A stretch of DNA of 64,000 nucleotides from a phage: sequence record NC_100327.1; one strand, given 5' to 3'. The number at the start of each line of letters is the position of its first letter. The first letter of the stretch is position 1. Both the position numbers and the translations under genes were made by a program. The notes beneath the pieces are model-generated. The model saw only the letters and a list, made by a program, of their open reading frames with translations, was not told where the DNA came from and ran no database searches. This document shows positions 19,617 to 57,073 of the stretch, in pieces.

Positions 19617-19693
19617 TGGTCTCCACGGAGTGATTCGAACACTCGACCTCCTGATCCCAAATCAGGCGCTCTACCAAGCTGAGCTACGCGGAG
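19617..19693 (-). tRNA. tRNA-Pro (anticodon TGG)
   Basis: Hand-folded cloverleaf: 7-bp acceptor with C1-G72, D-arm, anticodon loop TTTGGGA, T-loop TTCGAAT, encoded CCA. Confidence 0.75.
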
Positions 19694-19703
19694 TATTTAT
19701 TAT

Positions 19704-19779
19704 TTGGTGGCCCTGGGTGGAATTGAACCACCGTCTGGCGATTATGAGTCGCTTGCTTGAACCTTCCAGCTACAGGGCC
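19704..19779 (-). tRNA. tRNA with CAT anticodon (Met, or Ile if lysidine-modified)
   Basis: Acceptor GGCCCTG/CAGGGCC, anticodon loop CTCATAA, T-arm GGTGG-TTCAATT-CCACC, CCA encoded. Confidence 0.75.
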
Positions 19780-19780
19780 A

Positions 19781-19856
19781 TGGTGCTGATGGCAGGACTT
19801 GAACCCGCAACCTATTGATTACAAATCAATTGCACTACCGATTGTGCTACATCAGC
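19781..19856 (-). tRNA. tRNA-Thr (anticodon TGT)
   Basis: Perfect acceptor GCTGATG/CATCAGC, anticodon loop TTTGTAA, T-loop TTCAAGT, CCA encoded. Confidence 0.8.
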
Positions 19857-19860
19857 AAAA

Positions 19861-19959
19861 AGGTGCTAGGTGATGGAATCGAACCACCTATGTATTCAAC
19901 GACTACCTCGTCTATTTTCAGGATTAAAAATCCTCGCCCTTGCCAAAGGGCTTACCTAG
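19861..19959 (-). tRNA. aberrant tRNA-like element with Lys (TTT) anticodon loop and ~25-nt insertion
   Basis: About 99 nt: perfect acceptor GCTAGGT/ACCTAGC, D-arm GCCC-TTTGGCAA-GGGC, anticodon loop TTTTTAA, T-arm GGTGG-TTCGATT-CCATC; extra hairpin GACGA-ggtag-TCGTT between anticodon and T arms; 3' end ACC not CCA. Confidence 0.4.
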
Positions 19960-20057
19960 CTCAGTATGTTGACCATGTTGCTAGTCGGCGATGACGACTG
20001 TAACATTTGATAATCCGGTTCTGCTTCCGACTTTCGCTTAATTACAAGGTCAACAAT

Positions 20058-20148
20058 GTGGCGGAGAGTAATGGAATCGAACCATCATCGAGTCATCCTC
20101 AACGGGACGGTTTTCAAGACCGCTTGAGCACCATTGCTCCCTACCCTC
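20058..20148 (-). tRNA. tRNA-Ser (anticodon TGA), type II
   Basis: Acceptor GGAGGGT/ACTCTCC with one G-U, anticodon loop CTTGAAA, long variable arm, T-loop TTCGATT, CCA encoded. Confidence 0.65.
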
Positions 20149-20263
20149 CTTTATAAATTATACTGATAATGACACTGATTTTCGAGCAGTTAGTGACTAG
20201 TATAAACGACGATAAATATCAATGCCATTATCTGTATTATTTATGCATCTAAAAATATAAATT

Positions 20264-20350
20264 TGGTGGGGAGTGGTGGAGTCGAACCACCCGAGTCGCA
20301 ATGACAATAGATTTACAGTCTACACCGCTACCTCTACGGGATAACTCCCC
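20264..20350 (-). tRNA. tRNA-Tyr (anticodon GTA), type II
   Basis: Acceptor GGGGAGT/ACTCCCC, anticodon loop CTGTAAA, long variable arm, T-arm GGTGG-TTCGACT-CCACC, CCA encoded. Confidence 0.75.
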
Positions 20351-20354
20351 AATT

Positions 20355-20429
20355 TGGCACCCCGTACTGGACTCGAACCAGTGTCAACGGCTTAGAAGGC
20401 CGCTGCTTTATCCACTAAGCTAACAGGGC
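20355..20429 (-). tRNA. tRNA-Arg (anticodon TCT)
   Basis: Acceptor with two G-U pairs, D-loop AGTGGATA, anticodon loop CTTCTAA, T-arm ACTGG-TTCGAGT-CCAGT, CCA encoded. Confidence 0.75.
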
Positions 20430-22969: not shown

Positions 22970-23320
22970 CTAACCAGTTGTTGACATCCGAATAACTTCT
23001 TCTGGTGGCAAAACTTTGGAAAATGTGCATCTTTTACCTCTCCCTTGTGTGGATGTTTCAACCACTCCTGCACATTCTAAAGTTTTAACGCACGCTGCTG
23101 CTTTTGTTTTCTTTATCCCAACATCTGCTGCAATTTTCCTTGTGCTTGGTGTGAAGCGTGAATTTCCTCCAAGCTTATACCAGTTGTGCAGGTAGCAGTA
23201 TACGATCTTGTCATACAAGTCAAGAACAACAACCTCCCCAGTTGTGTCATTCAAAACTTTTGACATAGATAGTATTTCAAGGGGGACTTTAAGATATAGC
23301 AGCTTATCCCCATCTTTCAT
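22970..23320 (-). CDS. winged-helix/HTH DNA-binding protein (candidate binder of adjacent iterons)
   Basis: 116 aa, ATG with AGGAG RBS; helix-turn-helix-like segment STRKIAADVGIKKTKAAACVKTLECAGVV. Confidence 0.45.
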   Translation of the reverse strand: MKDGDKLLYLKVPLEILSMSKVLNDTTGEVVVLDLYDKIVYCYLHNWYKLGGNSRFTPSTRKIAADVGIKKTKAAACVKTLECAGVVETSTQGRGKRCTFSKVLPPEEVIRMSTTG

Positions 23321-23367: not shown

Positions 23368-23922
23368 TTACTCCCTGCTGTCAATATCAAAACTCATTGC
23401 AATACGGTATGCCTCTTCTAATGGTAAGAGTCTCCCCCACACATCCCAACCGACATCAAGCTGCCTGCCAAACAACTGTTGTGTGGTTCCGTGAGCATGA
23501 CCGAACAGTTGGACTGATCCGTGAGGCTTTCTGTTCCACTTTGCAAACTGGTAATGGCTCATACAGATCAAATTCTTGTTGTGGCGAAGCTCGTAATAAT
23601 CTACAACCTCATGACCGAACTCTTTCATAATTCTGACAGTCGTCCTTGTGTCATGGTTGCCACGAACAAGAATAATATGTCCGTTCAACATATTTAGAAT
23701 ATCTGGAAGTAAGTTGTTGATATTCTTATCATTAGTGCACGCAATATCTCCCAAGTGGAACACAGTGTCTGCAGGTGACACAACAGAGTTCCACTCGGCG
23801 ATGATTCCCGCATTCATACTGTCAAGATTGTGATCATACTGAGATCTGTGTTTTTGACATGAATCAAACTCCATGACCCGCTGGTGGAGAAAGTGTGTGT
23901 CGCTTGTTACAAAGTATTTCAT
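23368..23922 (-). CDS. calcineurin-like metallophosphoesterase
   Basis: ORF track 23368..24027; start moved to ATG (MKYFVTSDTHF) with GAGGAA RBS; motifs SDTH, HLGDI, GNHD. Confidence 0.7.
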   Translation of the reverse strand: MKYFVTSDTHFLHQRVMEFDSCQKHRSQYDHNLDSMNAGIIAEWNSVVSPADTVFHLGDIACTNDKNINNLLPDILNMLNGHIILVRGNHDTRTTVRIMKEFGHEVVDYYELRHNKNLICMSHYQFAKWNRKPHGSVQLFGHAHGTTQQLFGRQLDVGWDVWGRLLPLEEAYRIAMSFDIDSRE

Positions 23923-23929
23923 ACATTCC

Positions 23930-24340
23930 TCATTTAAGTTTAATGCAGTTTTTAAGCTGGCGTTCCATACGATCCACAACCTTGTCTGGAACATCATGAA
24001 TGCTTTTATTACCGTGGCGGTTTTCAACCACGATCACGGTATAACTATACCCATGACTGATTGCCATGTCAACATATTCCTGCACATGTTTTTCTTTTGT
24101 AAACGTATTACTTACCACGATACGGTCGTATCCCATACGCATCATATCTTCTACGTTATCTTTGCACCATTTTGCTGCGAGTGTTACTTTACTTGCATCC
24201 CAGTTGTAATTGCCGTCATCGTCATACCAGAACATGTCGTTCTCAAAATGTGGATACAGACCCTCTAAAGATAGCGCATTTGCCAGTGTTGATTTGCCAG
24301 ACCCTGGTAGACCACGCACGATATATAGCATTTTAGACAT
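23930..24340 (-). CDS. P-loop kinase (polynucleotide-kinase-like)
   Basis: ORF track 23930..24397; start at ATG (MSKMLYIVRG) with GGAGGG RBS; Walker A GLPGSGKST. Confidence 0.6.
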   Translation of the reverse strand: MSKMLYIVRGLPGSGKSTLANALSLEGLYPHFENDMFWYDDDGNYNWDASKVTLAAKWCKDNVEDMMRMGYDRIVVSNTFTKEKHVQEYVDMAISHGYSYTVIVVENRHGNKSIHDVPDKVVDRMERQLKNCIKLK

Positions 24341-24461
24341 AGTGACCCTCCGTTTTAATTTCAACGGTAGTATACCTAACTGTTTTGTTAATTTCAAGTG
24401 TTGACACTAGGTTATTTGTGTGGCAGGATAGACTGACAAAATGACAAATGAGGAACATATA

Positions 24462-25376
24462 ATGAAGTATTTTAATGCAGACGACCTAGTTGACAAAGGT
24501 CTTGTAACCAGTAGGTATTACCCAGATCTCGGGTTAAAGATCTATAAATATGCTAGAAAAGTATTTTACAACAATTTATGGCATTTGTCCCCTCGTTTAC
24601 TGGAGTGCCGAGGCATTGTTGTAGGTAATGAAGGAAATGTTGTGGCATGGCCCTTCACAAAAGTGTTTAACTTGGGAGAAAACTCCACCAACCTGCCTGA
24701 CAATAAGCTTGTGACTGCGGTAGAGAAAAAGAACGGATTCCTTGGTGTGGTATCATCTCATAAAGGTGACCTATTGTTCTCAACAACCGGGTCTCTTGAT
24801 TCTCCATATTGTAACCTTGCAAAGGAAACCATCCAAGAGCAATGTGGTAATTTAGATCTTATCAAGAAGGTTATGGGCAATGAAAACATGACATTCATGT
24901 TTGAAATTTGTCACCCTTCAGATCCGCATATTGTTCAAGAAGACCATGGCGCATATTTGATAGGTTGCAGATATAATGATTCTGGAATAATGCTACCAGA
25001 AGCCGCTTTAGATGGGATTGCCAAATACCTTGGTGCAAAACGTCCTCACACTGTGCGTGAAATTCCGTTCAGCTATGCAAAAGAGTTAGCTGCAGAAACA
25101 AGAGGTGAAGGATATATGATTCGTAAGCCTTACTACCCTTATGATCTGCAGTTGAAGATCAAGTCTCCATACTATCTGGCACGAAAGGCCGTAATGAGGG
25201 GTAAAGCTTGGAAGATTTGGGATGATGATATCTTTAAACGTGTTGACGAAGAGTTTTACGGCATGGTAAACTTCATTCGTAACAACTACACAGAGGATGT
25301 ATGGAACTGCCTCCTGGAGCAGGAACGCCGTGAGATACTTGACTGCTATTTCCACAACGAGGACTATATGCAATGA
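24462..25376 (+). CDS. RNA ligase-like nucleotidyltransferase
   Basis: ORF track 24441..25376; start at second ATG with GAGGAA RBS; ligase motifs EKKNGFLG (KxNG), EGYMIR, KIKSP. Confidence 0.6.
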   Translation: MKYFNADDLVDKGLVTSRYYPDLGLKIYKYARKVFYNNLWHLSPRLLECRGIVVGNEGNVVAWPFTKVFNLGENSTNLPDNKLVTAVEKKNGFLGVVSSHKGDLLFSTTGSLDSPYCNLAKETIQEQCGNLDLIKKVMGNENMTFMFEICHPSDPHIVQEDHGAYLIGCRYNDSGIMLPEAALDGIAKYLGAKRPHTVREIPFSYAKELAAETRGEGYMIRKPYYPYDLQLKIKSPYYLARKAVMRGKAWKIWDDDIFKRVDEEFYGMVNFIRNNYTEDVWNCLLEQERREILDCYFHNEDYMQ

Positions 25377-25723
25377 AGAAGTTGATTGTGTGGCTGGATG
25401 ACTTGAGAGATCCGTCAAATTACGAGCTCCAAGACGCTGTTTGGCTAAAGAATTCCTCCGAGTTTATAGATTTTATTAACGATAATAGAAAGCTCTACAG
25501 ACGCGTTTCTGAGTGGCACATGGACAACGACCTTGGAGAGTTGTTCGAAGGGTACGATTGCCTATCTATGTTGGAGGAAAAATTTGTATTTGGTAAGCCC
25601 CCTGTAGTTGACAACGTGAAGATTTTCGTGCATACTTCTAACCCATCAGCGGCTCGTAAATTCATGCTTGCAGCTGACTCGTTTAAAAAGTTTGGAATAG
25701 AGATTAAACAAAACATCTACTGA
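25373..25723 (+). CDS. small receiver-like (Rossmannoid) protein, translationally coupled to RNA ligase
   Basis: 116 aa; ATG overlaps ligase stop (ATGA); pattern IVWLDD ... DNDLGE ... KIFVHTSNP ... K. Confidence 0.45.
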   Translation: MKKLIVWLDDLRDPSNYELQDAVWLKNSSEFIDFINDNRKLYRRVSEWHMDNDLGELFEGYDCLSMLEEKFVFGKPPVVDNVKIFVHTSNPSAARKFMLAADSFKKFGIEIKQNIY

Positions 25724-25731
25724 GGACACTT

Positions 25732-26493
25732 ATGCGACGACTGATTATTATCTCCGGTGCTGGTTTGAGCGCTGAATCTGGTATTCCCACTTTCCGATCT
25801 GGTAGCACTGCAATGTGGGAGAATTTCAGCATCGATGAGGTGTGCAACATCCACACCTTTGCCAAGAACTACTACAAGGTGCATGACTTTTACAATGCAC
25901 GTCGTGTAGCTCTAGGCGGTGTTGAGCCTAACCTTGCACATCTTCGGATCGCTGAGTGGTATTCCCGCTGGTCTGGTCGTGTGATCAACCTTACCACCAA
26001 TGTAGATGATTTGCTGGAGCGTGCGGGTGTAAAACATGAAGATATTTTACATGTTCACGGGTATTTGCCAGAAATAGTCTATGAGGACGACGAAGGAAGT
26101 AACGTCATTAAGGACATTGGATACTCTGAGGTAGATGCAGGAAAGTATACCTGGGTTAAGCCTAATGTGGTGTTCTTCGGAGAAGTAGCTCCGAAGTATA
26201 CAGACATGTATGACCTGTTGACTTCTCTTACGAGTAATGATATGGTTATCCTTGTAGGGTGTTCCAACACAGTTATCAATTTTAACTGGGAGCTATTCCC
26301 TGCCTGCAATAAGGGAACCAAACTGCTGATCGTTAACAAATACGACTCACAGCAGCTAGGGGAGAATGGTATTTCACGTAGTGATATTTACCAATATGAG
26401 GATCGCGGCATCCCAGTTTGGTTTAACGGGGCGGTTGATGCTTTCTCTGATAAAACATTCATTGAGACCGTAGAAAACTTTATGGAACTTTAA
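25732..26493 (+). CDS. Sir2-family NAD-dependent protein (deacylase/ADP-ribosyltransferase-like)
   Basis: 253 aa, ATG with GAGGA RBS; GAGLSAESGIPTFR, TTNVDDLLERAG, HVHG, NVVFFGE motifs. Confidence 0.8.
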   Translation: MRRLIIISGAGLSAESGIPTFRSGSTAMWENFSIDEVCNIHTFAKNYYKVHDFYNARRVALGGVEPNLAHLRIAEWYSRWSGRVINLTTNVDDLLERAGVKHEDILHVHGYLPEIVYEDDEGSNVIKDIGYSEVDAGKYTWVKPNVVFFGEVAPKYTDMYDLLTSLTSNDMVILVGCSNTVINFNWELFPACNKGTKLLIVNKYDSQQLGENGISRSDIYQYEDRGIPVWFNGAVDAFSDKTFIETVENFMEL

Positions 26494-26506
26494 AAGGAGA
26501 CCTTTA

Positions 26507-27220
26507 ATGCTGAATACCAAATTAATTGACAACCTGGAAAAACTGTCCCAACCTGAAAACTACCTTTGGTCTGCCAACTGGGTGGAAAACTGGAACCGTG
26601 TGGCAGCTAAAGTGAAAAAATCATACACACCATTCGAATTACAGCTTAGCTTCATTGAGGAAGAGTTCAATGAAGTTTTGGAAGAGCTGGAGAAAGGTGA
26701 TGGCGGAGATCACCTGCTAAAAGAGGCCTGCGATCTTCACGTTGTCACAAGTTATGCCGCTTATCTTGTTAATGATAATCACGAAAAGTGGTCAAACCTG
26801 TTTGATAATCCACAGGGTCTTAAGTTCAAGATCGGTGAGTTCTATGATACACTGATCGCTGCGAAAAACACCTCTAAGCAAAAAGCGTCCGCTTACCGCT
26901 TAGCAGAGTTGTCAACAGCTTTGCTGTTCCAGCTTCGCGGCGATGTGTGCGGGATGATGCGTAAGGTTCTCAAATCGAATGACAGCAAGTTTGCACGGGT
27001 CAACCATCTACAGTATTCACACGGTGCCAGTGCAGATATGCCTGCTGAACAACTCATCGAGTTGGAGATTAAAGATCTTGAGCGTCGTTTTGGTGGTCGC
27101 TACGAAGGTTTCGTTGCTAAAGAGGAGTTCTACAACGGCAATAAAGTTATTATATTCCTTGACAGTAAAGGTAAGATTATGAAGCCTTCGAGCTTCAAGG
27201 ATGTAACAGAGTATATTTAA
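26507..27220 (+). CDS. MazG-like nucleotide pyrophosphohydrolase domain protein
   Basis: 237 aa, ATG with AAGGAG RBS; EExxE...D helical signature (FIEEEFNEVLEEL...EACDLH). Confidence 0.45.
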   Translation: MLNTKLIDNLEKLSQPENYLWSANWVENWNRVAAKVKKSYTPFELQLSFIEEEFNEVLEELEKGDGGDHLLKEACDLHVVTSYAAYLVNDNHEKWSNLFDNPQGLKFKIGEFYDTLIAAKNTSKQKASAYRLAELSTALLFQLRGDVCGMMRKVLKSNDSKFARVNHLQYSHGASADMPAEQLIELEIKDLERRFGGRYEGFVAKEEFYNGNKVIIFLDSKGKIMKPSSFKDVTEYI

Positions 27221-27227
27221 CAACATA

Positions 27228-27252
27228 GCCGGGATTACCCGGCTTTACTTAT
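27228..27252 (+). terminator. rho-independent terminator
   Basis: AGCCGGG-atta-CCCGGCT hairpin followed by TTTACTT. Confidence 0.55.
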
Positions 27253-27282: not shown

Positions 27283-27591
27283 ATGTACAAGCATTCCAGA
27301 GATCTTGAAAAAGATGCTGTGTTTGGCGACCAGATGAAGGAGCTGATCAAACTTATTGGTAGAATGGAAGATAAGTTTGACACTAAAATCTACATCGATA
27401 GCAAGGTCTTCAACCACAAAATATGGACAAATGTGTGTGTTGGGCTACATGGTGATAAAGATATTGTAAATTTGGTTGTAATAAAGTTCATAGTGTGGCA
27501 GAATAGGACTATACGTTATTACGACCCACACTTACTTGTTTATCCTATAAAAGACCTACTACAGAAGGAGGACTGCAATGCCGTTATTTAA
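27283..27591 (+). CDS. hypothetical protein
   Basis: 102 aa, ATG with GAGG RBS. Confidence 0.5.
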   Translation: MYKHSRDLEKDAVFGDQMKELIKLIGRMEDKFDTKIYIDSKVFNHKIWTNVCVGLHGDKDIVNLVVIKFIVWQNRTIRYYDPHLLVYPIKDLLQKEDCNAVI

Positions 27592-27847
27592 TCTTGCTAA
27601 ACCTGTAGAAGCACATCAGTTTGACGGAAGCTCTTCATCAGTATCTGATCTGCAACGGTGGATTGATACAGGTGTGTTTACATCGTCACCTGTTCGGACC
27701 AGAGATCTTCGTCGCATGTGTGAGCTTGTCGAGCCTTTTGGTAACCTTGTCTTGTACCAGGGAGATTGGCTAGTTGACTTTATGGGAGACTGGTTGGTAA
27801 TGAGTAAAGAAGAGATGTTTAAAATTTTTAAGGAAGAGGCCGAGTAA
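27578..27847 (+). CDS. hypothetical protein
   Basis: 89 aa, ATG with GGAGG RBS, overlaps neighbours. Confidence 0.5.
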   Translation: MPLFNLAKPVEAHQFDGSSSSVSDLQRWIDTGVFTSSPVRTRDLRRMCELVEPFGNLVLYQGDWLVDFMGDWLVMSKEEMFKIFKEEAE

Positions 27848-29130
27848 TGCATCAGATCAAAACAACACTGTACGCACTGAATAAAGATGGCAGCTACCAA
27901 CAGTGGAAAGTATTCACGGATGGTGATAAGGTTATCGTAGAGTTTGGCAAGCTTGATGGTAAACTGCAGTACAAAGAGACGGTATGCACACCTAAGAACG
28001 TAGGTCGTGCCAACGAGACTACAGCTGAGCAACAGGCCGAGCTTGAGGCTATCAGCAAGTGGGAAAAACAAGTCCGTCTGGGGTATGTTGAAAACATGGA
28101 AGATTGCGAGCAGGGTGTTGATCTTTTACCCATGCTGGTGCATGACTACCTGAAGCGTGGCAAGGCACTTAAATTACCTTGCTGGATCTTGCGTAAGTTA
28201 GATGGCCTTCGTCTGCTTGTTGTTTTCCAAAATGGTGAGCCTAAATTTATTTCCCGTGGTAATAAGTCCTACCCTATTCAAGGAAAGCTTTTAGAGCAAC
28301 TTCGTTCTTTCCATTCTACCACTGGGATTAAACAACTTGATGGGGAACTATACATTCATGGTCTTCCTTTGCAGAAAATAGTGTCTCTTGCTAAACGGTG
28401 GCGCACACAGGAAGAGATTCAGGCCGAGATCGATAAAGACTATGAGGCAGATAAAAAACGCCGTCATGCAGCAATTAAGGCAGGCTTATCAACATACAAA
28501 AACTTCAACAAGGTAGATATTCCTGTCGATGTTGAGCCTGTTCGTGATGATTTGCGTTACGGTGGGTACTGTAGCTACGATCTGGAGTATCACATTTTTG
28601 ATATTCCTAGCGACAAGGTGTGGTGGGATCCAGAAACAGAGTCTGGACGCTGCAAGGATCTTATGGATGCAGAGGATACCGTTACCACTCTGATGCTTGA
28701 CCATATCAAGGTTGTTGACGCAGAGCTTGCGTACACAGTTGATCATTGCGAAGAATCTGTTGGTATATTCATGTCCGAAGGATATGAAGGTACTATCATG
28801 CGTAATTTCTGCGGTAAATACGAGTACGGTCAGCGAACATCTGAAGCATTGAAATGGAAAAAGTTCAACGACGCAGAGGTGAAAGTTATTGACGTTGAGA
28901 AAGATAAGAATGATGAAGGTGTTCTTATCTGTGTTGACAAGGAAGGTGTTATTGTTAAAATGAAGATGAAAGGCACGCACGAGGAGCGTAGCTATGACAG
29001 GATGCAGGAAATGATCGGCAAGTTTGTCACCTTCAAATATCAATCAAGGACAGAAGACAACAACTACCAATTCCCTGTCGGTATCTGCGTCCGAAATGTT
29101 GACCCAGACACTTGGGAGGTTCTGGAATGA
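27847..29130 (+). CDS. ATP-dependent DNA ligase
   Basis: 427 aa; motif I RKLDGLR (KxDGxR), DGELY, EGTIMR, KWKKF. Confidence 0.8.
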   Translation: MHQIKTTLYALNKDGSYQQWKVFTDGDKVIVEFGKLDGKLQYKETVCTPKNVGRANETTAEQQAELEAISKWEKQVRLGYVENMEDCEQGVDLLPMLVHDYLKRGKALKLPCWILRKLDGLRLLVVFQNGEPKFISRGNKSYPIQGKLLEQLRSFHSTTGIKQLDGELYIHGLPLQKIVSLAKRWRTQEEIQAEIDKDYEADKKRRHAAIKAGLSTYKNFNKVDIPVDVEPVRDDLRYGGYCSYDLEYHIFDIPSDKVWWDPETESGRCKDLMDAEDTVTTLMLDHIKVVDAELAYTVDHCEESVGIFMSEGYEGTIMRNFCGKYEYGQRTSEALKWKKFNDAEVKVIDVEKDKNDEGVLICVDKEGVIVKMKMKGTHEERSYDRMQEMIGKFVTFKYQSRTEDNNYQFPVGICVRNVDPDTWEVLE

Positions 29131-30004: not shown

Positions 30005-30469
30005 GTGGAAGACGGACGTTTAATGAAGTCTGAACGCAGGCTTATTGTGCAACTGATCCCAGAAACAGCTTGGTATAATAACCTACGAAACGCTGTGAAG
30101 AAGAGTGAGTGGGATAAGATCCGTAAGAAGTGCTACAGAGAAGCCAACTACACTTGTGAGGTGTGCGGAGGTAAAGGCAGCAAACACCCAGTGGAGTGTC
30201 ATGAACTTTACACTTTCGAAGATGGAGTGATCCGTCTTGTCGGACTGATAGCGTTGTGCCCGGATTGTCACACATCGGTGCACCCTGGGTTAGCAAATAT
30301 CCGTGGAAAGTATGCTCAGGCAGTTAATCAGTTGGCTAAGGTGAATAAGATCACCAAGGGCATGGCAGAGGCTTATTATCGAGACTGCTTTGCAGAGTGG
30401 CGGGAGCTTAGCAAGGTTCCGGAATGGAAGACTGACTTTTCTTGGATACATCAGTATTTGGAGAATTAA
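30005..30469 (+). CDS. HNH-type zinc-finger nuclease-like protein
   Basis: 154 aa; GTG start with GAGGAG RBS; CEVCGG...ECHELY...CPDCHTSVH. Confidence 0.45.
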   Translation: MEDGRLMKSERRLIVQLIPETAWYNNLRNAVKKSEWDKIRKKCYREANYTCEVCGGKGSKHPVECHELYTFEDGVIRLVGLIALCPDCHTSVHPGLANIRGKYAQAVNQLAKVNKITKGMAEAYYRDCFAEWRELSKVPEWKTDFSWIHQYLEN

Positions 30470-30471
30470 GT

Positions 30472-31326
30472 GTGGTATACTACAATGACAATGATAAAGA
30501 TGCAGTTGCTTGGTTGAAGAATCTAATATCTTTAGGACTACTTCCTCAAGGCGAGGTGGATGATCGTTCTATTACAGAGGTTACTGTAGAAGATCTTAGA
30601 GGTTTCACACAGTGGCACTTCTTCGCTGGCATAGGTGGATGGCCTTTGGCCTTGAAACTTGCTGGCATTCCAGAAACTTGGTCGGTATGCACAGGATCTC
30701 CGTGCTGCCAACCTTTCTCTCAAGCAGGTAAGCAACGTGGAAAATTTGACCCAAGACATCTTGCACCAACATACCTCCGGCTCGTTAAACAGCTTAAACC
30801 TGAGTTCATGTTTGGAGAGCAGGTTGCAAAAGCGATTGAATCCGGATGGCTCGACGATATGCAGAATGAAATGGAAAACGCTGGTTACAGCTTCGGGGCT
30901 TCCATACTTAATGCTGCAATCCTCAACGCCCCGCACCGCCGCGAACGACTTTACTTCGGGGCAGTTAGCAACGTGGTTAACCCCTACGGTAACTCAGGTA
31001 GGGTGCAGATCTCAGGAAGCGATGGAAAGGCGCAAGCAACAACGCTTAGCAACTGGCAGGAAGTCATTAAGTCCTGGGAATCTGTGGGAGCAGGTGAGGA
31101 TGTATTACGGGTGTGGGAGCATACAAGACAGTATCTATGCCGAGACGGAAAATGGCGTAAACTTCCTGAACCCGGCATTCCCTTGTTGGTTGATGGGCTA
31201 TCCACCCCAATGGGATTGTCTCGCCACAAAGGCTTCGGTAACGCCATAGTTCCTCAAATAGGGGCACTTTGGGTGCAAGAGTTTATGAAGTCAGTGGATG
31301 ATTGTGTGAGAGGTGAGCATGGCTAA
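30472..31326 (+). CDS. DNA (cytosine-5)-methyltransferase
   Basis: ORF track 30442..31326; GTG start just after upstream stop; motif I FFAGIGGW, motif IV GSPCCQPFSQAGK, RRERLYF, GNAI. Confidence 0.8.
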   Translation: MVYYNDNDKDAVAWLKNLISLGLLPQGEVDDRSITEVTVEDLRGFTQWHFFAGIGGWPLALKLAGIPETWSVCTGSPCCQPFSQAGKQRGKFDPRHLAPTYLRLVKQLKPEFMFGEQVAKAIESGWLDDMQNEMENAGYSFGASILNAAILNAPHRRERLYFGAVSNVVNPYGNSGRVQISGSDGKAQATTLSNWQEVIKSWESVGAGEDVLRVWEHTRQYLCRDGKWRKLPEPGIPLLVDGLSTPMGLSRHKGFGNAIVPQIGALWVQEFMKSVDDCVRGEHG

Positions 31327-53247: not shown

Positions 53248-53712
53248 ATGTTTGTTAAATATGTAAAAACGTGCCTCAACAGTCTTGGCAGAGAGCATTG
53301 GTACACCTTGCTTGAAAAAGGGGAAATTTTAACAAAATCTGGAAAGATAACTTTGATACCTCTTGATAGTAAAGGTAAAGACCCGTCACGACTTGTTATA
53401 GATGATTACGTTACAGGTGTGACGTTCGAGGTCTCTGTGGAGAGGTTAATACGCAGAGCTGGCGGCCCTTATGACCGAAGAGAGTATGTTTTCGATTCCG
53501 TTACAGAGATGGGGGAGCATCCGTCTTTAATGTTCAGGATGGTAATCAGAGATATGAGGTCATCTATAGATAGGATCGTAAAGGACATTAAGGAACCTTT
53601 TAGAGTAAAAGTTAAGAAGTTTTTCGATTCTAAGATTAACATACTCGCCGTTGCACTAGGTGTAGTTCAACTTCTGTTAATTTTGCACTATTTTGAACTA
53701 CTATTTAAGTAG
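53248..53712 (+). CDS. C-terminally membrane-anchored protein
   Basis: ORF track 53242..53712; ATG at codon 3; C-terminal hydrophobic helix ILAVALGVVQLLLILHYF. Confidence 0.5.
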   Translation: MFVKYVKTCLNSLGREHWYTLLEKGEILTKSGKITLIPLDSKGKDPSRLVIDDYVTGVTFEVSVERLIRRAGGPYDRREYVFDSVTEMGEHPSLMFRMVIRDMRSSIDRIVKDIKEPFRVKVKKFFDSKINILAVALGVVQLLLILHYFELLFK

Positions 53713-53774
53713 TAGTTGAGATATGGCACAAAGGATGTGCCATAGTGAAATAAACTAAGAAAGAGGTAGAGAGA

Positions 53775-54122
53775 ATGCCAAAGATTAAAACGTTATTACT
53801 GTGGGTAGCTGTTTTAGCTTTTATAGGGTACTGGACTTGGGAAACTGAATTAAAAGATATCGGATATACCAGTCTTGAGAGCAAGGCGTGCATTGGCATA
53901 ACCGATGCGTTCAGGCAAAATGCTATGGATCACGAATGTGTTGATGCAGATATAGATGAGAAACTGTCTAAGGACAAAGATTTTTACCATGGGCATGCTT
54001 TACTTGATAGTGGTGACACTGTAGAGTTCTGGTCGTGGTTTCGTGAAGATGGAACAATAAAAACAGCAGTAAAGATTTCTAACAAAGAGTTAATGCTGTT
54101 GCAGCAAAAGGAGGCTCAATGA
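53775..54122 (+). CDS. N-terminally anchored membrane/periplasmic protein
   Basis: 115 aa, ATG with AGAGG RBS; N-terminal TM LLLWVAVLAFIGYW. Confidence 0.5.
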   Translation: MPKIKTLLLWVAVLAFIGYWTWETELKDIGYTSLESKACIGITDAFRQNAMDHECVDADIDEKLSKDKDFYHGHALLDSGDTVEFWSWFREDGTIKTAVKISNKELMLLQQKEAQ

Positions 54123-54406
54123 TTTGGATATCCTATGCTGATGGCACCATGCTGTATACTGCAGGTACCAGATATGAAGTTCAGGAGAACGATAAAAAAT
54201 TTATCGTAAAAACATTTGACAAGGACGACAACCTTTTGCTAGAATTGACTTACAAAGTTGGAGAGGTATCCAATATCCAGTTGGATTGTGGTCATAAAGA
54301 TAATTCACTCAAAAAACCTGGAGTAGGTAAGGCTTCAGAAGAACGTCTGTCTCGTATTGCAGAAAGCGTTTCTCCCCAAAAATCTAAGAAGAGGACTAGA
54401 AAATGA
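54119..54406 (+). CDS. hypothetical protein
   Basis: 95 aa, ATG with AAGGAGG RBS. Confidence 0.5.
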   Translation: MIWISYADGTMLYTAGTRYEVQENDKKFIVKTFDKDDNLLLELTYKVGEVSNIQLDCGHKDNSLKKPGVGKASEERLSRIAESVSPQKSKKRTRK

Positions 54407-54597
54407 AAAACTTACGTTTTAACACTTATTACTACAACACATTGAATGATTTGTATTATATTGTTCGAAGTAAAAGTCCTGAAACAGTCCTATTCTGCCG
54501 CGAACCTTTCAAAGGGGAGGAAGTAGAGTCTGAGATGAATGTTAGCCAGATCACCTCTTTGTTGCTCTCAGGCGCAATGGAAGAAGCAATATTCTAA
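54403..54597 (+). CDS. hypothetical protein
   Basis: 64 aa, ATG overlapping upstream stop. Confidence 0.45.
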   Translation: MKNLRFNTYYYNTLNDLYYIVRSKSPETVLFCREPFKGEEVESEMNVSQITSLLLSGAMEEAIF

Positions 54598-54615
54598 ACC
54601 AGGCGGGAGGGTTTT

Positions 54616-54801
54616 ATGAAGCACTATTGCCTGTCTGGTAGAATGGGTGCAGATTGTGATTGGGTTTTCTTAAAACTTGTCAGCATTCGAGAGTTCATCC
54701 CAGAGGAAGAGCAAGAAAGCGAGCTGATGTCATGGATCAACCATTACGGTAACACTTTTCGGCATGTTAAGGTAGAAGAGTTGCCAAGCGAGGCTGATTG
54801 A
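54616..54801 (+). CDS. hypothetical protein
   Basis: 61 aa, ATG with GGGAGGG RBS. Confidence 0.45.
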   Translation: MKHYCLSGRMGADCDWVFLKLVSIREFIPEEEQESELMSWINHYGNTFRHVKVEELPSEAD

Positions 54802-54803
54802 CT

Positions 54804-54893
54804 ATGATTGCATCAATATTAACGTTTATGGGTGGCGTGGCATTCGGATTCATTGTTTGCCTGTTTATAGTGATTATGTCTATGCGAGGCTGA
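54804..54893 (+). CDS. hydrophobic micro-peptide (29 aa, candidate)
   Basis: Found by hand; MIASILTFMGGVAFGFIVCLFIVIMSMRG; begins 3 nt after upstream stop. Confidence 0.3.
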   Translation: MIASILTFMGGVAFGFIVCLFIVIMSMRG

Positions 54894-54896
54894 ATT

Positions 54897-55193
54897 ATGA
54901 AACTTTTTGAGTGGTTTAAAAAGTTTAAATATAAAGCTGTAGCCATCGTGCCGTGGTCCATTCAGTGGGTTGATGAAGGTGGTCTACCGATACCTGGTGA
55001 CAAAGATACTGGGTACTGGATTATGATGGAGAACGGGTTTGGAAAGCGAAAGTATACGTGCACAAACTCTACTCGATCTGCACTTAATAGAGTGCCTGGT
55101 TACAAACTTATGGTTGTGTGGAAAATGTCAGGCGTGCCTCCAGCCAATGCTCAATTTCTTACTGACAATCCTACCACGGTAGAGGGAGATTGA
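54897..55193 (+). CDS. hypothetical protein
   Basis: 98 aa, ATG with GAGG RBS. Confidence 0.5.
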   Translation: MKLFEWFKKFKYKAVAIVPWSIQWVDEGGLPIPGDKDTGYWIMMENGFGKRKYTCTNSTRSALNRVPGYKLMVVWKMSGVPPANAQFLTDNPTTVEGD

Positions 55194-55195
55194 TA

Positions 55196-55477
55196 ATGAA
55201 AAAGATTAACAGTAGTGAAGTCGAGTTTAAACTTGTCGGAAAAGGCACTTACTGGGAAGTTCGTCAAAAGGTATATTTGTTCGGTCTTATTCCTTACTGG
55301 TCTAAATTCTACTGGGGAGCTAACGAGTGGGGAAGATACGCCACCAAATCAATGGCACTTATTGGTATAGCAGAGTACATTGCAGCCAGAGATAGGGTTG
55401 GAGACACTTATTACTATACTGCGGACGATATTCGTAACAGTGTTTACGTCCCACAACCACCTGATGGAGACCGTTGA
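55196..55477 (+). CDS. hypothetical protein
   Basis: ORF track 55190..55477; ATG at codon 3 with AGAGGGAG RBS. Confidence 0.5.
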   Translation: MKKINSSEVEFKLVGKGTYWEVRQKVYLFGLIPYWSKFYWGANEWGRYATKSMALIGIAEYIAARDRVGDTYYYTADDIRNSVYVPQPPDGDR

Positions 55478-55701
55478 TGAAAGTTAAAGTTTTAGATTCA
55501 AGCTTCTATATTGGTCAGGAGCCCTTAGTGGGGAAAGTGTTTACTGCTGTCCCTAACGAAGATTACCCCGACCTTTTAAAAATAAAAGGGGCAGATCTTA
55601 TTGCCGCTGGTGCATCTCAGGAATGCTTTGACAGTCAGTGGACCTACAACTTTGCCCTAGGTGAGGATGTAGAGATAGTGGAGGACAATCATGAAGGTTA
55701 A
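55477..55701 (+). CDS. small acidic protein, paralog family A
   Basis: ORF track 55474..55701; ATG; MKVKVLDSSFYIGQ...LLKIKGADLIAAGA...DVEIVED. Confidence 0.55.
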   Translation: MKVKVLDSSFYIGQEPLVGKVFTAVPNEDYPDLLKIKGADLIAAGASQECFDSQWTYNFALGEDVEIVEDNHEG

Positions 55702-55945
55702 AATTCTTGATTCTAACGTCTACTTGGGACAATCCTTCCTGAAGGGAAAGGTCGTTCCTGCGGTATACTTTGAAGGGTTGCCGTGGGATGATCCTGTTCG
55801 GCAACATCACAGTTATGTAGGCCACAACGTAGTGTTTATCTTAGGAGCAGACCTGATCACCGCTGGTGCACCTGAATATTATTTCGGGGAAGAGTCCTAT
55901 TATGCCTTTGGGGTAGGGTCAGATGCAGATATTGTAGAGCTGTGA
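55691..55945 (+). CDS. small acidic protein, paralog family A
   Basis: 84 aa; MKVKILDSNVYLGQ...VVFILGADLITAGA...DADIVEL. Confidence 0.55.
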   Translation: MKVKILDSNVYLGQSFLKGKVVPAVYFEGLPWDDPVRQHHSYVGHNVVFILGADLITAGAPEYYFGEESYYAFGVGSDADIVEL

Positions 55946-55957
55946 TGGGTAACCGTT

Positions 55958-56356: not shown

Positions 56357-56373
56357 AACAGTGGGGTACTAAC

Positions 56374-56664: not shown

Positions 56665-56670
56665 AAACTG

Positions 56671-57064: not shown

Positions 57065-57073
57065 GGTGCTACA

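What the first reader, a model, noticed from the sequence alone, without database searches (positions are those of the whole stretch)
23368..27220. Divergent candidate RNA-repair island with an attached Sir2-family enzyme
On the minus strand a calcineurin-like metallophosphatase (SDTH, GD, GNHD) and a P-loop kinase (GLPGSGKST) sit together, resembling a split end-healing enzyme. Diverging from the same intergenic region is an RNA-ligase-like gene (KxNG, EGYMIR, KIKSP) whose stop overlaps the start of a small receiver-like protein, followed by a Sir2-family protein (GAGLSAESGIPTFR, TTNVDD, HG, VVFFGE) and a MazG-like protein. T4 Pnkp plus Rnl1 is the known end-healing/sealing paradigm against anticodon nucleases. 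The phosphatase-kinase-ligase trio fits that paradigm; a coupled receiver-like protein and a Sir2 enzyme do not, and could be an NAD-dependent step or a separate NAD-directed counter-defence. This is the most system-like unexplained gene set in the window.
Basis: partly seen in the sequence, partly recalled or inferred. Interest (0 to 1): 0.8.

Follow-up and report, generated by a model that had tools for sequence, protein, structure and literature searches.

The report
Phage RNA-repair cassette with sirtuin add-on
This stretch of an rV5-like coliphage encodes a kinase, a phosphatase and an RNA ligase that most likely mend tRNAs cut by bacterial defences, plus a sirtuin, a receiver-like enzyme and a pyrophosphatase whose link to RNA repair was predicted in print in 2022 for this same phage group but has never been tested.

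Summary
In detail: all six genes and every quoted motif are present. The window is a Vequintavirus (98.8% identical to Escherichia phage JeffSchatz). Profile searches identify a calcineurin-type metallophosphoesterase, a polynucleotide 5'-kinase, a T4 Rnl1-family RNA ligase, a Pfam cREC_REC domain, a sirtuin and a MazG-type pyrophosphohydrolase.

In my own linkage survey of 70 distinct ligase loci, the kinase is nearby in 60, the phosphoesterase in 55 and both in 51. Gene order is shuffled and some loci carry kinase–ligase fusions. This trio is therefore a real, widespread heal-and-seal module.

cREC, Sir2 and MazG join the trio only in enterobacterial 135–153 kb phages. The same Sir2 clade occurs elsewhere without the ligase: next to a HAD "Swiss-army-knife" RNA-repair phosphatase in T5-like phages, and next to a Nudix–cREC fusion and NAD-salvage genes in a jumbo phage.

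Iyer, Burroughs, Anantharaman and Aravind (Viruses 2022, PMC9503650) already described this neighbourhood, naming "Escherichia phage V5" as a prototype. They proposed that the sirtuin removes RNA 2'-phosphates with NAD+, as KptA/Tpt1 does. I found no experimental test.

My additions are minor: the clade derives from class III sirtuins, lacks the zinc ribbon, and the phosphoesterase is a core partner rather than an occasional one. Verdict: real, already known, biochemically unproven.

The parts
23368..23922 (-). Calcineurin-type metallophosphoesterase (MPE, 184 aa). Presumed RNA 2',3'-cyclic-phosphate / 3'-phosphate end-healing enzyme.
   Evidence: Pfam PF00149 E=3.5e-5, above gathering; phrog_547 E=1e-49. 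The DxH, GD, GNHD, H and GHxH motifs are invariant in 8 orthologs. Best PDB match is aq_1665 (1xm7), E=1e-14. Lies within 8 kb of the ligase in 55 of 70 loci. Its substrate is inferred, not shown.
23930..24340 (-). Polynucleotide 5'-kinase (P-loop, 136 aa).
   Evidence: Pfam AAA_33 E=1e-10; phrog_505 polynucleotide kinase. In a profile search the best PDB hits are Pnkp1 4xrp (2e-6), the C. thermocellum Pnkp kinase domain 4gp7 (1e-5) and T4 Pnkp 1ltq (2.7e-5). The P-loop and D35 are invariant; D35 aligns with the first D of the RDD motif in Pnkp1. Linked to the ligase in 60 of 70 loci and fused to it in 5.
24341..24461 (.). Divergent intergenic region between the kinase and ligase genes. Presumed back-to-back promoters.
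   Evidence: Minus-strand promoter-like site 24397->24369 (10 of 12 matches). TTGACA on the plus strand at 24401, with no good -10 element. GAGGA Shine-Dalgarno at 24450-24454. The number of promoter-like sites in the region is not above shuffled expectation (18 vs 14.4), so this is weak evidence.
24462..25376 (+). ATP-dependent RNA ligase of the T4 Rnl1 family (304 aa; an upstream ATG at 24441 is less likely).
   Evidence: Pfam RNA_lig_T4_1 E=1e-14; phrog_562 E=3e-66; TIGR02308 E=6.5e-10, below the equivalog cut-off. The ortholog profile hits only T4 Rnl1 in the PDB (2c5u, 9do4; E=3e-9), aligning motifs I, IV and V. K89, N91, G92, E216, G217, K232 and K234 are invariant.
25373..25723 (+). cREC (cyclic-phosphate-processing receiver domain) protein, 116 aa. 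Its start overlaps the ligase stop (ATGA).
   Evidence: Pfam PF20274 E=2.9e-15. Receiver catalytic positions D9/D10, D51/D53, S89 and K96 are invariant. No PDB relative by sequence. Enzymatic activity is predicted only (PMC7824862, PMC9503650).
25732..26493 (+). Sirtuin (253 aa), class III-derived and lacking the zinc ribbon. Predicted NAD+-dependent RNA 2'-phosphate remover.
   Evidence: Pfam SIR2 E=5e-27. Best PDB matches are SIRT5, CobB and Af Sir2, E~7e-21. Scores below all NCBIfam CobB cut-offs, 122 vs 243 bits. GAGxS, FR, Y54/R57, TNVDD, H109-G110 and FFGE are invariant. The HG..FGE segment has 0-1 Cys in 19 members. No PADLOC defence-type Sir2 hit.
26507..27220 (+). MazG-type all-alpha NTP pyrophosphohydrolase-like protein (237 aa) with an uncharacterised C-terminal extension.
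   Evidence: phrog_671 E=1e-21. EEExxE (51-56) and ExxD (73-76) are invariant. Pfam PRA-PH E=0.086 for this protein, but the ortholog in L023 scores 25.0 bits against a gathering score of 21.3. No PDB hit; the single-sequence model is unusable.
27227..27244 (+). GC-rich hairpin followed by a T-rich tail. Terminator-like end of the ligase-cREC-Sir2-MazG unit, and symmetrical on both strands.
   Evidence: 7-bp stem with 6 G-C pairs, AGCCGGG-ATTA-CCCGGCT, then TTTACTTATTA, starting 7 nt after the MazG-like stop. This is a pattern match only.

Best explanation
The locus is a phage RNA (most likely tRNA) heal-and-seal repair cassette with a lineage-specific NAD-linked extension.

Core. Assignment is well supported; activity is inferred.
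- Host anticodon nucleases and other metal-independent RNases leave 2',3'-cyclic-phosphate and 5'-OH ends.
- The P-loop kinase phosphorylates the 5'-OH.
- The metallophosphoesterase opens and removes the cyclic or 3'-phosphate.
- The Rnl1-family ligase seals the nick with ATP.
- This is the T4 Pnkp+Rnl1 logic, with the end-healing functions on separate proteins and a calcineurin-type phosphatase instead of a HAD one, as in bacterial Pnkp.

Extension. This is inferred and follows Iyer et al. 2022.
- cREC, co-translated with the ligase, is a receiver-fold phosphoesterase. It either opens the cyclic phosphate to a 2'-phosphate or linearises ADP-ribose 1'',2''-cyclic phosphate.
- The zinc-less sirtuin uses NAD+ to transfer ADP-ribose onto a residual RNA 2'-phosphate and expel it as ADP-ribose cyclic phosphate. 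This is the chemistry of Tpt1/KptA. It closely parallels the normal sirtuin mechanism: attack on C1'' of NAD+, then His-assisted attack by the ribose 2''-OH to give a 1'',2''-cyclic intermediate.
- The MazG-type pyrophosphatase breaks the ADP-ribose by-product down to AMP. In the jumbo-phage version a Nudix domain fused to cREC would do this.

My sub-confidences: core trio as RNA end-healing and sealing, about 0.85. Sir2, cREC and MazG working in the same pathway, about 0.45. Sir2 specifically as a 2'-phosphotransferase, about 0.35.
For: Family assignments:
- Ligase in the Rnl1 family.
- Kinase closest to RNA-repair polynucleotide kinases.
- Phosphoesterase with intact catalytic motifs.
- cREC, sirtuin and MazG-type protein.

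Linkage of the trio:
- 51 of 70 distinct ligase loci carry both the kinase and the phosphoesterase within 8 kb.
- These loci show at least five gene arrangements and 5 kinase-ligase fusions.

Linkage of the add-on:
- Sir2, cREC and MazG sit with the trio in rV5-like and Mydo-like phages at only 44-60% protein identity.
- The Sir2 clade is linked to RNA-end phosphatases in a second, unrelated context: HAD_SAK_2 (E=4e-20) lies 0-450 bp downstream of Sir2 in 28 of 42 ligase-less loci.
- It is linked to a cREC-pyrophosphatase pair in a third context, a Nudix-cREC fusion in a jumbo phage.

Operon-like packing and a terminator-like hairpin. A tRNA cluster, including an unusual tRNA-Lys(UUU), lies 3.5-4 kb away. 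The same reading is published for phage V5 (PMC9503650).
Against: - No enzyme here has been assayed, and I found no experimental paper.
- The trio is self-sufficient in principle. T4 and C. thermocellum Pnkp remove cyclic phosphates completely, so nothing requires a 2'-phosphate step. About 80% of ligase loci lack Sir2, cREC and MazG.
- The ligase profile matches T4 Rnl1, which needs no 2'-phosphate. It does not match fungal Trl1 ligase structures.
- Sir2 is not obligately linked. In phi92/phAPEC8-like genomes it lies about 31 kb from the ligase while cREC and MazG stay with the ligase. T5-like phages have Sir2 but no ligase or cREC nearby.
- Sir2's closest relatives are protein deacylases, and it keeps their anion-binding Tyr/Arg pair and FGE loop.
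- Much of the co-conservation is among related phages and could be inherited synteny.
- Distant stand-alone cRECs sit among unrelated genes.
Confidence: 0.5

Rival explanations
1. The sirtuin is an ordinary CobB/SIRT5-like protein lysine deacylase. It would act on host or phage proteins, for example keeping lysine-adenylating enzymes such as the adjacent RNA and DNA ligases free of inactivating acylation, or retuning host metabolism. It sits beside the repair genes only because accessory early genes cluster. The kinase-phosphoesterase-ligase trio repairs RNA on its own.
For: - The best sequence matches are protein deacylases: SIRT5, CobB and Af Sir2 at E~1e-20, and the NCBIfam CobB models.
- All deacylase catalytic residues, the class III Tyr/Arg anion pocket and the FGE substrate loop are invariant in the close clade.
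- The trio occurs without Sir2 in about 80% of ligase loci. Sir2 occurs without the ligase in T5-like and phi92-like contexts.
- In Mydo-like phages the Sir2 gene abuts or overlaps the ATP-dependent DNA ligase gene.
- That CobB reactivates acetyl-CoA synthetase by deacetylating its catalytic lysine is established knowledge, not tested here.
Against: - It scores at half the curated CobB equivalog cut-off.
- The zinc ribbon that shapes the peptide-binding cleft is absent in all 19 members examined.
- The Tyr/Arg spacing is not kept in the jumbo-phage member.
- Sir2 is repeatedly linked to RNA-end or ADP-ribose-processing enzymes in three different architectures. That is hard to explain if the substrate is a protein.
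Confidence: 0.25
2. Sir2, cREC and the pyrophosphatase (MazG or Nudix) form an NAD+/ADP-ribose-centred module that is independent of RNA ligation. It might destroy or remodel ADP-ribose-derived immune signals, or manage NAD+ turnover during infection. It is merely parked next to the repair trio in rV5-like phages.
For: - In the jumbo phage pEa_SNUABM_50, Sir2 and the Nudix-cREC fusion lie directly downstream of NMNAT and NAMPT with no RNA ligase nearby.
- In L054, Sir2 lies beside NAMPT and PRPP synthetase plus a canonical MazG.
- PMC9503650 itself lists cREC among domains predicted to process ADP-ribose derivatives.
Against: - A sirtuin consumes NAD+ rather than restoring it, and no sirtuin-based counter-defence is known.
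- When Sir2 and the ligase are separated (phi92/phAPEC8-like), cREC and MazG stay with the ligase, kinase and phosphoesterase, not with Sir2.
- cREC is translationally coupled to the ligase in the window.
- T5-like phages pair Sir2 with an RNA-repair-type HAD phosphatase.
Confidence: 0.15
3. The 'RNA ligase' works mainly as a tail-fibre attachment catalyst (the second activity of T4 gp63/Rnl1), or the trio processes DNA ends, so the cluster is not about RNA repair.
For: PHROG and many GenBank records label the protein 'RNA ligase and tail fiber protein attachment catalyst'. An ATP-dependent DNA ligase gene lies 630 bp downstream of the cluster.
Against: - The label is inherited from T4 gp63 and not tested.
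- All nucleotidyltransferase motifs, including the adenylated lysine, are invariant.
- Tight linkage and fusion to a polynucleotide kinase and a phosphoesterase makes sense only for nucleic-acid end chemistry.
- The phage has a separate dedicated DNA ligase.
- The cluster is in an early/accessory region next to tRNA genes, not among tail genes.
Confidence: 0.05

Closest known systems
Sirtuin-centred predicted RNA-repair neighbourhood 'type 2' of Iyer, Burroughs, Anantharaman & Aravind 2022 (PMC9503650, section 3.7.3, Fig. 5f), prototyped by Escherichia phage V5 and Proteus phage Mydo
   Same: The gene set is identical: sirtuin, T4-like tRNA ligase, cREC, nucleotide kinase, MazG-superfamily pyrophosphatase and calcineurin-like phosphoesterase. 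The window is a Vequintavirus, the rV5 genus.
   Different: Nothing substantive.
- My survey shows the phosphoesterase is a core partner of this ligase clade (55 of 70 loci) rather than 'occasional'.
- The sirtuin clade lacks the zinc ribbon and is class III-derived. The paper does not mention either point.
Bacteriophage T4 Pnkp + Rnl1 tRNA repair (counter to the PrrC anticodon nuclease)
   Same: The logic is 5'-kinase plus phosphatase plus Rnl1-family ligase. The ligase's only PDB relative is T4 Rnl1, and the kinase matches the T4 Pnkp kinase domain.
   Different: - Kinase and phosphatase are separate proteins.
- The phosphatase is a binuclear metallophosphoesterase, not a HAD/DxDxT enzyme.
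- The ligase is 304 aa against 374 aa and scores far below the Rnl1 equivalog cut-off.
- T4 has no Sir2, cREC or MazG partners.
Bacterial Pnkp (Clostridium thermocellum Pnkp/Hen1; Capnocytophaga Pnkp1-Rnl-Hen1)
   Same: It uses the same three chemistries with a calcineurin-type phosphoesterase. The kinase's best PDB hits are these proteins. Some viral loci even fuse kinase and ligase.
   Different: - The functions sit on three separate proteins here.
- The phosphoesterase is of the aq_1665 type and shows no detectable sequence match to the C. thermocellum Pnkp phosphatase domain.
- The ligase is Rnl1-type, not the Pnkp ligase type.
- I saw no Hen1 methyltransferase.
Fungal/plant tRNA ligase Trl1 (ligase-kinase-CPDase) plus Tpt1/KptA NAD+-dependent 2'-phosphotransferase
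   Same: If the published prediction is right, the parts list maps one to one. A cyclic phosphodiesterase (cREC), kinase and Rnl1-superfamily ligase would leave a 2'-phosphate. An NAD+-dependent enzyme (Sir2) would then remove it as ADP-ribose cyclic phosphate.
   Different: - Sir2 and Tpt1 have unrelated folds, as do cREC and the 2H CPDase. This would be functional analogy only.
- The ligase profile does not detect Trl1 structures.
- No activity has been shown.
Class III sirtuins (E. coli CobB, human SIRT5)
   Same: About 45% identity over the N-terminal 110 residues. NAD-binding motifs, the catalytic His and the Tyr/Arg anion-binding pair are conserved.
   Different: There is no Cys4 zinc ribbon, and the HG..FGE segment is only 37-40 residues. 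The protein scores below all curated CobB cut-offs. The clade is phage-restricted and embedded among RNA-end-processing genes.

Membership tests
T4 Rnl1 (RnlA) family ATP-dependent RNA ligase | Passes the Pfam RNA_lig_T4_1 gathering score | tested here: met
   55.4 bits against a cut-off of 28.3, E=1e-14, full-length profile match 1-227.
T4 Rnl1 (RnlA) family ATP-dependent RNA ligase | Nucleotidyltransferase motifs I (KxxG lysine nucleophile), IV (EG) and V (KxK) | tested here: met
   K89-x-N-G, E216-G217 and K232-I-K234 are invariant in 8 orthologs. They align with the KEDG, EGY and KIKS motifs of T4 Rnl1 2c5u.
T4 Rnl1 (RnlA) family ATP-dependent RNA ligase | Equivalog-level similarity to T4 RnlA (NCBIfam TIGR02308 cut-off) | tested here: not met
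   38.7 bits against a cut-off of 242. The protein is a divergent family member, not an ortholog-level match.
T4 Rnl1 (RnlA) family ATP-dependent RNA ligase | C-terminal tRNA-specificity domain of T4 Rnl1 | tested here: inconclusive
   The profile alignment runs to residue 296 of 374 in 2c5u. The phage protein is 70 aa shorter. No usable structure model could be made.
T4 Rnl1 (RnlA) family ATP-dependent RNA ligase | Seals 3'-OH/5'-PO4 RNA nicks with ATP | not testable with these tools
   Needs an enzyme assay.
Polynucleotide 5'-kinase (T4 Pnkp / bacterial Pnkp kinase domain type) | P-loop, plus the catalytic Asp equivalent to T4 Pnkp D35 | tested here: met
   GxxGxGKST and D35 are invariant. 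D35 aligns with the first Asp of the RDD motif in Pnkp1 4xrp.
Polynucleotide 5'-kinase (T4 Pnkp / bacterial Pnkp kinase domain type) | Closest solved relatives are polynucleotide kinases rather than nucleotide or small-molecule kinases | tested here: met
   The top seven PDB hits are Pnkp1, the C. thermocellum Pnkp kinase domain and T4 Pnkp (E from 2e-6 to 5e-5), ahead of gluconate, shikimate and adenylate kinases.
Calcineurin-like binuclear metallophosphoesterase | Metal-binding motifs DxH, GD, GNH[DE], H and GHxH | tested here: met
   D8, H10, D59, N89, H90, H123, H142 and H144 are invariant in 8 orthologs. Pfam PF00149 scores 24.7 against a gathering score of 21.5.
Calcineurin-like binuclear metallophosphoesterase | Belongs to the lambda-phosphatase-like subfamily used by bacterial Pnkp for RNA end healing | tested here: not met
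   The profile search finds only aq_1665 (1xm7), GpdQ-type phosphohydrolases and YfcE. There is no hit to the C. thermocellum Pnkp phosphatase domain or to lambda phosphatase.
cREC (Pfam PF20274, cyclic-phosphate processing receiver domain) | Passes the Pfam gathering score | tested here: met
   57.2 bits against a cut-off of 27, E=2.9e-15.
cREC (Pfam PF20274, cyclic-phosphate processing receiver domain) | Receiver-type acidic active site (paired Asp after strand 1, Asp after strand 3) with the conserved Ser/Thr and Lys | tested here: met
   D9-D10, D51/D53, S89 and K96 are invariant in 6 orthologs.
cREC (Pfam PF20274, cyclic-phosphate processing receiver domain) | Hydrolyses 2',3'-cyclic phosphate RNA ends or ADP-ribose 1'',2''-cyclic phosphate | not testable with these tools
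   The activity is a prediction in PMC7824862 and PMC9503650. I found no assay.
Sirtuin (Sir2) superfamily | NAD+-binding Rossmann motifs (GAGxS, FR, TxNxD) and the catalytic His of the HG motif | tested here: met
   All are invariant in 18 sequences at 44-99% identity. Pfam SIR2 E=5e-27.
Sirtuin (Sir2) superfamily | Cys4 zinc-ribbon small domain of canonical sirtuins | tested here: not met
   0-1 Cys in the 37-40-residue HG..FGE segment of 19 members.
CobB-type protein deacylase (NCBIfam equivalogs) | Score above the curated cut-off | tested here: not met
   The best model, NF001753, scores 122 bits against a cut-off of 243. NF040867 (CobB) scores 103 against 320.
Defence-type SIR2 NADases (ThsA, DSR, SIR2-HerA) | Match to PADLOC defence Sir2 models or to Pfam SIR2_2 | tested here: not met
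   No PADLOC hit. SIR2_2 E=0.059, below gathering.
Tpt1/KptA RNA 2'-phosphotransferase (functional analogy only) | NAD+-dependent removal of RNA 2'-phosphate yielding ADP-ribose 1'',2''-cyclic phosphate | not testable with these tools
   The fold is different, so the protein is not a family member. The analogy rests on gene context and on mechanistic parallels from established sirtuin and Tpt1 chemistry.
MazG / all-alpha NTP pyrophosphohydrolase superfamily | EExxE...ExxD metal-binding helices | tested here: met
   E51-E52-E53, E56, E73 and D76 are invariant in 11 sequences.
MazG / all-alpha NTP pyrophosphohydrolase superfamily | Passes a Pfam gathering score for a superfamily member | tested here: inconclusive
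   The window protein scores 13.7 bits against 21.3 (PRA-PH). The L023 ortholog scores 25.0 bits and passes; two others score 17.7 and 20.6. PHROG 671 gives E=1e-21.
Iyer et al. 2022 'type 2' sirtuin RNA-repair neighbourhood | Co-located sirtuin, T4-like ligase, cREC, nucleotide kinase and MazG (with or without a calcineurin-like phosphoesterase) in a medium-sized proteobacterial phage | tested here: met
   All six genes lie within 3.9 kb in a 135-140 kb Vequintavirus. The paper names phage V5.

The most novel reading that the evidence does not exclude
The zinc-less, class III-derived phage sirtuin acts on RNA rather than protein. It would be an NAD+-dependent 2'-phosphotransferase convergent with Tpt1/KptA. 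Together with a receiver-fold phosphoesterase (cREC) and a MazG pyrophosphatase, it would give a bacteriophage a fungal-style tRNA ligation route that leaves and then removes a 2'-phosphate, layered on a T4-style heal-and-seal trio. This would be the first nucleic-acid-directed sirtuin and the first catalytic, non-signalling receiver domain. The idea is already published as a prediction, so the novelty would lie in proving it.
Probability: 0.35. Interest if true: 0.7.

Novelty: already known. Interest (0 to 1): 0.33.

Why it matters
tRNA cleavage is a widespread bacterial anti-phage strategy (PrrC, RloC, PARIS, Cas13a, colicins), and phage RNA repair is the counter-move. The kinase–phosphoesterase–ligase trio found here is common in viral metagenomes and probably shapes which hosts these phages can infect. 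That is relevant because rV5-like phages are used in phage-therapy and biocontrol collections.

The sirtuin, cREC and MazG extension matters if the 2022 prediction holds. It would extend sirtuin chemistry from protein lysines to RNA phosphates and show a receiver domain working as an enzyme. rV5-like phages grow on E. coli K-12, so the prediction can be tested directly. As a discovery from this scan, however, it is not new.

Tried and rejected
- Homolog search for the ligase. The search for homologous proteins timed out three times. I replaced it with ortholog alignments taken from fetched loci.
- Structure prediction with alignments. Single-sequence AlphaFold models of the MazG-like protein and cREC had mean pLDDT of 50 and 42. 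They were too poor to interpret, so I ran no fold searches.
- Profile searches against PDB sequences. cREC and the MazG-like protein gave nothing.
- A 161-aa protein takes the cREC slot between kinase and Sir2 in L042, L050 and L052. I suspected NADAR from its sequence pattern, but Pfam, PHROG and PDB profile searches do not support that. It stays unidentified (phrog_652).
- Promoter-like sites in the region are not more frequent than in shuffled sequence, 18 against 14.4±3.9. The divergent-promoter idea therefore rests on gene arrangement only.
- PADLOC gave no defence-system assignment for any of the six proteins, beyond weak P-loop similarity for the kinase.
- Neighbours of distant stand-alone cRECs (L066-L069) were uninformative.
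- I considered the class III Tyr/Arg pair as evidence for a phosphate-binding pocket. I rejected it as decisive because the spacing is not kept in the jumbo-phage sirtuin.
- Literature searches for experimental work on phage sirtuins, cREC or Vequintavirus RNA repair found only the two computational papers.

Full report
**What the window is.** The 4-kb region is 98.8% identical to Escherichia phage JeffSchatz (Vequintavirus, the rV5 genus). It matches 121 phage records at 90-99% identity. In those records the genes are already annotated as phosphoesterase, polynucleotide kinase, RNA ligase, Sir2-like protein and hypothetical proteins. GC skew changes sign near 24 kb, where transcription diverges.

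**Checking the observation.**
- Phosphoesterase: Pfam Metallophos, E=3.5e-5, above gathering.
- Kinase: AAA_33, E=1e-10.
- Ligase: RNA_lig_T4_1, E=1e-14.
- The "receiver-like" protein: cREC_REC (PF20274, "cyclic-phosphate processing receiver domain"), E=2.9e-15.
- Sir2: E=5e-27.
- The last protein has only a weak PRA-PH hit, E=0.086.

PHROGs agrees and strengthens the last assignment (phrog_671, nucleotide pyrophosphohydrolase, E=1e-21).

Two coordinates need adjusting. The phosphoesterase most likely starts at the ATG at 23922, not the TTG at 24027. The ligase most likely starts at 24462, which has a GAGGA ribosome-binding site 7 nt upstream.

The plus-strand genes are packed tightly: a 4-nt overlap, then gaps of 8 and 13 nt. 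A GC-rich hairpin with a T-rich tail follows at 27227-27244. On the minus strand, the kinase and phosphoesterase genes are 7 nt apart.

**Family membership.** I built ortholog alignments from related loci and searched them as profiles against PDB sequences.
- Ligase. The profile finds only T4 Rnl1 (2c5u, 9do4; E=3e-9). The lysine nucleophile and motifs IV and V align. It is nevertheless far below the NCBIfam RnlA equivalog cut-off.
- Kinase. The best hits are all RNA-repair polynucleotide kinases: Capnocytophaga Pnkp1, Clostridium thermocellum Pnkp and T4 Pnkp. The invariant D35 aligns with their catalytic Asp.
- Phosphoesterase. It keeps all binuclear-metal motifs. Its only clear structural relative is the uncharacterised Aquifex aq_1665, not the lambda-phosphatase-type domain of bacterial Pnkp.
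- cREC. It keeps the receiver catalytic positions (DD, D, S, K) but has no solved relative detectable by sequence.
- MazG-like protein. It keeps the EEExxE...ExxD metal-binding helices. One divergent ortholog passes the Pfam PRA-PH gathering score.

**The sirtuin.** Its closest relatives are class III sirtuins (SIRT5, CobB, archaeal Sir2; E about 1e-20), but it scores at half the curated CobB cut-offs.

Across 18 homologs at 44-99% identity, several features are invariant: the NAD-binding motifs, the catalytic His109, the FGE loop, and the Tyr54/Arg57 pair that binds anionic acyl groups in class III enzymes.

The four zinc-binding cysteines are absent from every member examined. The segment that should hold the zinc ribbon is only 37-40 residues long. 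The protein does not resemble defence-type Sir2 NADases.

**Independent linkage analysis, from the Sir2 side.** I fetched 53 viral loci encoding the Sir2 clade.
- In 145-153 kb phages (Mydo-like and relatives) the whole set lies on one strand in the order phosphoesterase, ligase, cREC, kinase, Sir2, DNA ligase, MazG.
- About 35 T5-like loci have Sir2 with none of these partners. Instead, a HAD_SAK_2 "Swiss Army Knife RNA repair" phosphatase (E=4e-20) lies 0-450 bp downstream. It is present in 28 of 42 ligase-less loci and in none of the ligase-type loci.

**Independent linkage analysis, from the ligase side.** I surveyed 70 distinct loci at 28-89% identity.
- The kinase is within 8 kb in 60 loci, the phosphoesterase in 55, and both in 51.
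- There are at least five gene arrangements and five kinase-ligase fusions.
- cREC (10), Sir2 (11) and MazG-like (13) occur only in the enterobacterial 135-153 kb phage group.
- In phi92/phAPEC8-like genomes, Sir2 lies about 31 kb from the cluster while cREC and MazG stay with the ligase.

**Other contexts.**
- In a jumbo phage of the species Eneladusvirus BF, Sir2 is followed by a Nudix protein whose C-terminus is a cREC domain (E=3e-7). NMNAT and NAMPT precede it.
- Across 50,697 phage genomes, cREC is found in 356 records and the Sir2 clade in 975.

**What this means.** The kinase-phosphoesterase-ligase trio is a genuine, widespread functional module. Fusion, shuffling and conservation at low identity are the classic signs of functional coupling. 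Its components match the T4 and bacterial RNA heal-and-seal enzymes.

I therefore hold with high confidence (about 0.85) that it repairs RNA broken by metal-independent nucleases, most plausibly tRNAs. The cluster sits 3.5-4 kb from a seven-tRNA cluster.

Sir2, cREC and the pyrophosphatase are a lineage-specific extension. Sir2 recurs beside enzymes that process RNA ends or ADP-ribose in three different architectures:
- cREC plus MazG plus the trio;
- the HAD_SAK phosphatase;
- the Nudix-cREC fusion.

This argues that Sir2's substrate is a phosphorylated nucleic-acid end or a nucleotide, not a protein. It is not proof. The Sir2 clade is separable from the ligase, the trio is chemically self-sufficient, and much of the synteny is among related phages.

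**Mechanism, with status marked.**
- Inferred from family: the kinase phosphorylates 5'-OH, the phosphoesterase removes 2',3'-cyclic or 3'-phosphate, and the ligase seals.
- Inferred from context and published prediction: cREC opens cyclic phosphates on RNA or on ADP-ribose. Sir2 transfers ADP-ribose from NAD+ to a residual 2'-phosphate and expels it as ADP-ribose 1'',2''-cyclic phosphate. MazG (Nudix in jumbo phages) degrades the by-product.
- From established chemistry: the sirtuin and Tpt1 mechanisms are closely parallel. In both, a nucleophile attacks C1'' of NAD+, and the ribose 2''-OH then attacks the attached group to form a 1'',2''-cyclic species. A sirtuin doing Tpt1's job is therefore chemically reasonable.
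- My own alternative for cREC: receiver and HAD domains both work through a phospho-aspartate. cREC could be a terminal phosphatase like the T4 Pnkp HAD domain. That would fit the T5-like phages, which pair Sir2 with a HAD enzyme instead.

**Comparison with the literature.** Iyer, Burroughs, Anantharaman and Aravind (Viruses 2022; PMC9503650, section 3.7.3) describe this neighbourhood. [quoted passage not shown] They propose the KptA-like role.

Their other two neighbourhood types are Serratia phage BF and phage SP15. These match what I found independently. cREC was defined in their 2021 jumbo-phage paper (PMC7824862).

Five literature searches found no experimental test. Some recent GenBank records already annotate the cREC gene by name.

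**Verdict.** It is the published prototype of a predicted NAD-dependent phage RNA-repair system.

My additions are incremental:
- the phosphoesterase is a core partner rather than an occasional one;
- the sirtuin clade is class III-derived and lacks the zinc ribbon;
- cREC and MazG follow the ligase rather than Sir2 when the two are separated;
- an unidentified 161-aa protein replaces cREC in some Erwinia-type phages.

Novelty: already known. Interest is modest (0.33). It rests on the biochemistry being open and easy to test in a K-12 phage.

Noticed in passing
window 19862..19960 (-): A 99-nt tRNA that ARAGORN cannot name ('atcc'). Rfam's tRNA model matches full length at 35.5 bits, with an insertion of about 26 nt. 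Reading the sequence, the anticodon loop is UUUUUAA, so this is tRNA-Lys(UUU), and the extra bases form a long variable arm. That is unusual for tRNA-Lys. tRNA-Lys(UUU) is the classic target of PrrC-type anticodon nucleases, so this may be a nuclease-evading substitute tRNA sitting about 3.5 kb from the repair cassette.
   Followed up: partly
window 19617..20429 (-): A cluster of seven tRNA genes just upstream of the repair cassette: Pro-UGG, Met/Ile-CAU, Thr-UGU, the odd Lys-UUU, Ser-UGA, Tyr-GUA and Arg-UCU. Ser and Tyr scored better against the tRNA-Sec model than the tRNA model in Rfam but below its gathering score, which probably just reflects their long variable arms.
   Followed up: no
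L050 9079..9564; L042 9302..9790; L052 9090..9575: In three Erwinia-type 147-149 kb phage contigs, the slot between kinase and Sir2 that cREC occupies elsewhere holds a conserved 161-aa protein (78-82% identical among the three). It falls in phrog_652 (unknown function) and has no Pfam or PDB match. It may be a non-orthologous replacement for cREC.
   Followed up: partly
L099, L100, L104-L106, L110, L112, L114, L117, L118: Metagenomic viral contigs in which the polynucleotide kinase and the Rnl1-type ligase are fused in one ORF, with no phosphoesterase nearby. This forms a distinct two-domain repair protein.
   Followed up: no
L149 (Erwinia phage pEa_SNUABM_50, record 53263..60951): A jumbo-phage gene row: NMNAT, hypothetical, NAMPT, three small genes, Sir2, Nudix-cREC fusion, membrane protein, PhoH/PIN. 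The zinc-less Sir2 sits directly beside an NAD+ salvage pair. L054 similarly has NAMPT and PRPP synthetase next to Sir2.
   Followed up: partly
window 22970..23320 (-): A 116-aa helix-turn-helix protein (Pfam DUF6945 E=3.8e-6, HTH_36 E=2.3e-5) lies immediately downstream of the phosphoesterase on the same strand. It has its own promoter-like site at 23384->23355. It could regulate the cluster, but it is conserved with the cluster only in rV5-like loci.
   Followed up: no
window 27283..27847 (+): Two small overlapping genes of unknown function (102 and 89 aa; phrog_7684 and phrog_14585) lie between the MazG-like gene and the ATP-dependent DNA ligase (27847..29130). Homologs of both travel with the cluster in Mydo-like phages, in different positions.
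   Followed up: no
search results: About 20 GenBank records named 'Campylobacter phage', with Campylobacter jejuni given as host (MG0656xx series), are 84-93% identical to this E. coli Vequintavirus cluster. These records are probably mislabelled or derived from contaminating coliphages.
   Followed up: no
window 30442..31326 (+): A 294-aa ORF contains a 'GSPCCQPFSQAGKQRG' stretch that resembles motif IV of DNA cytosine-5 methyltransferases. A homolog sits near Sir2 in L040. This was read from the translation only and not profile-tested.
   Followed up: no
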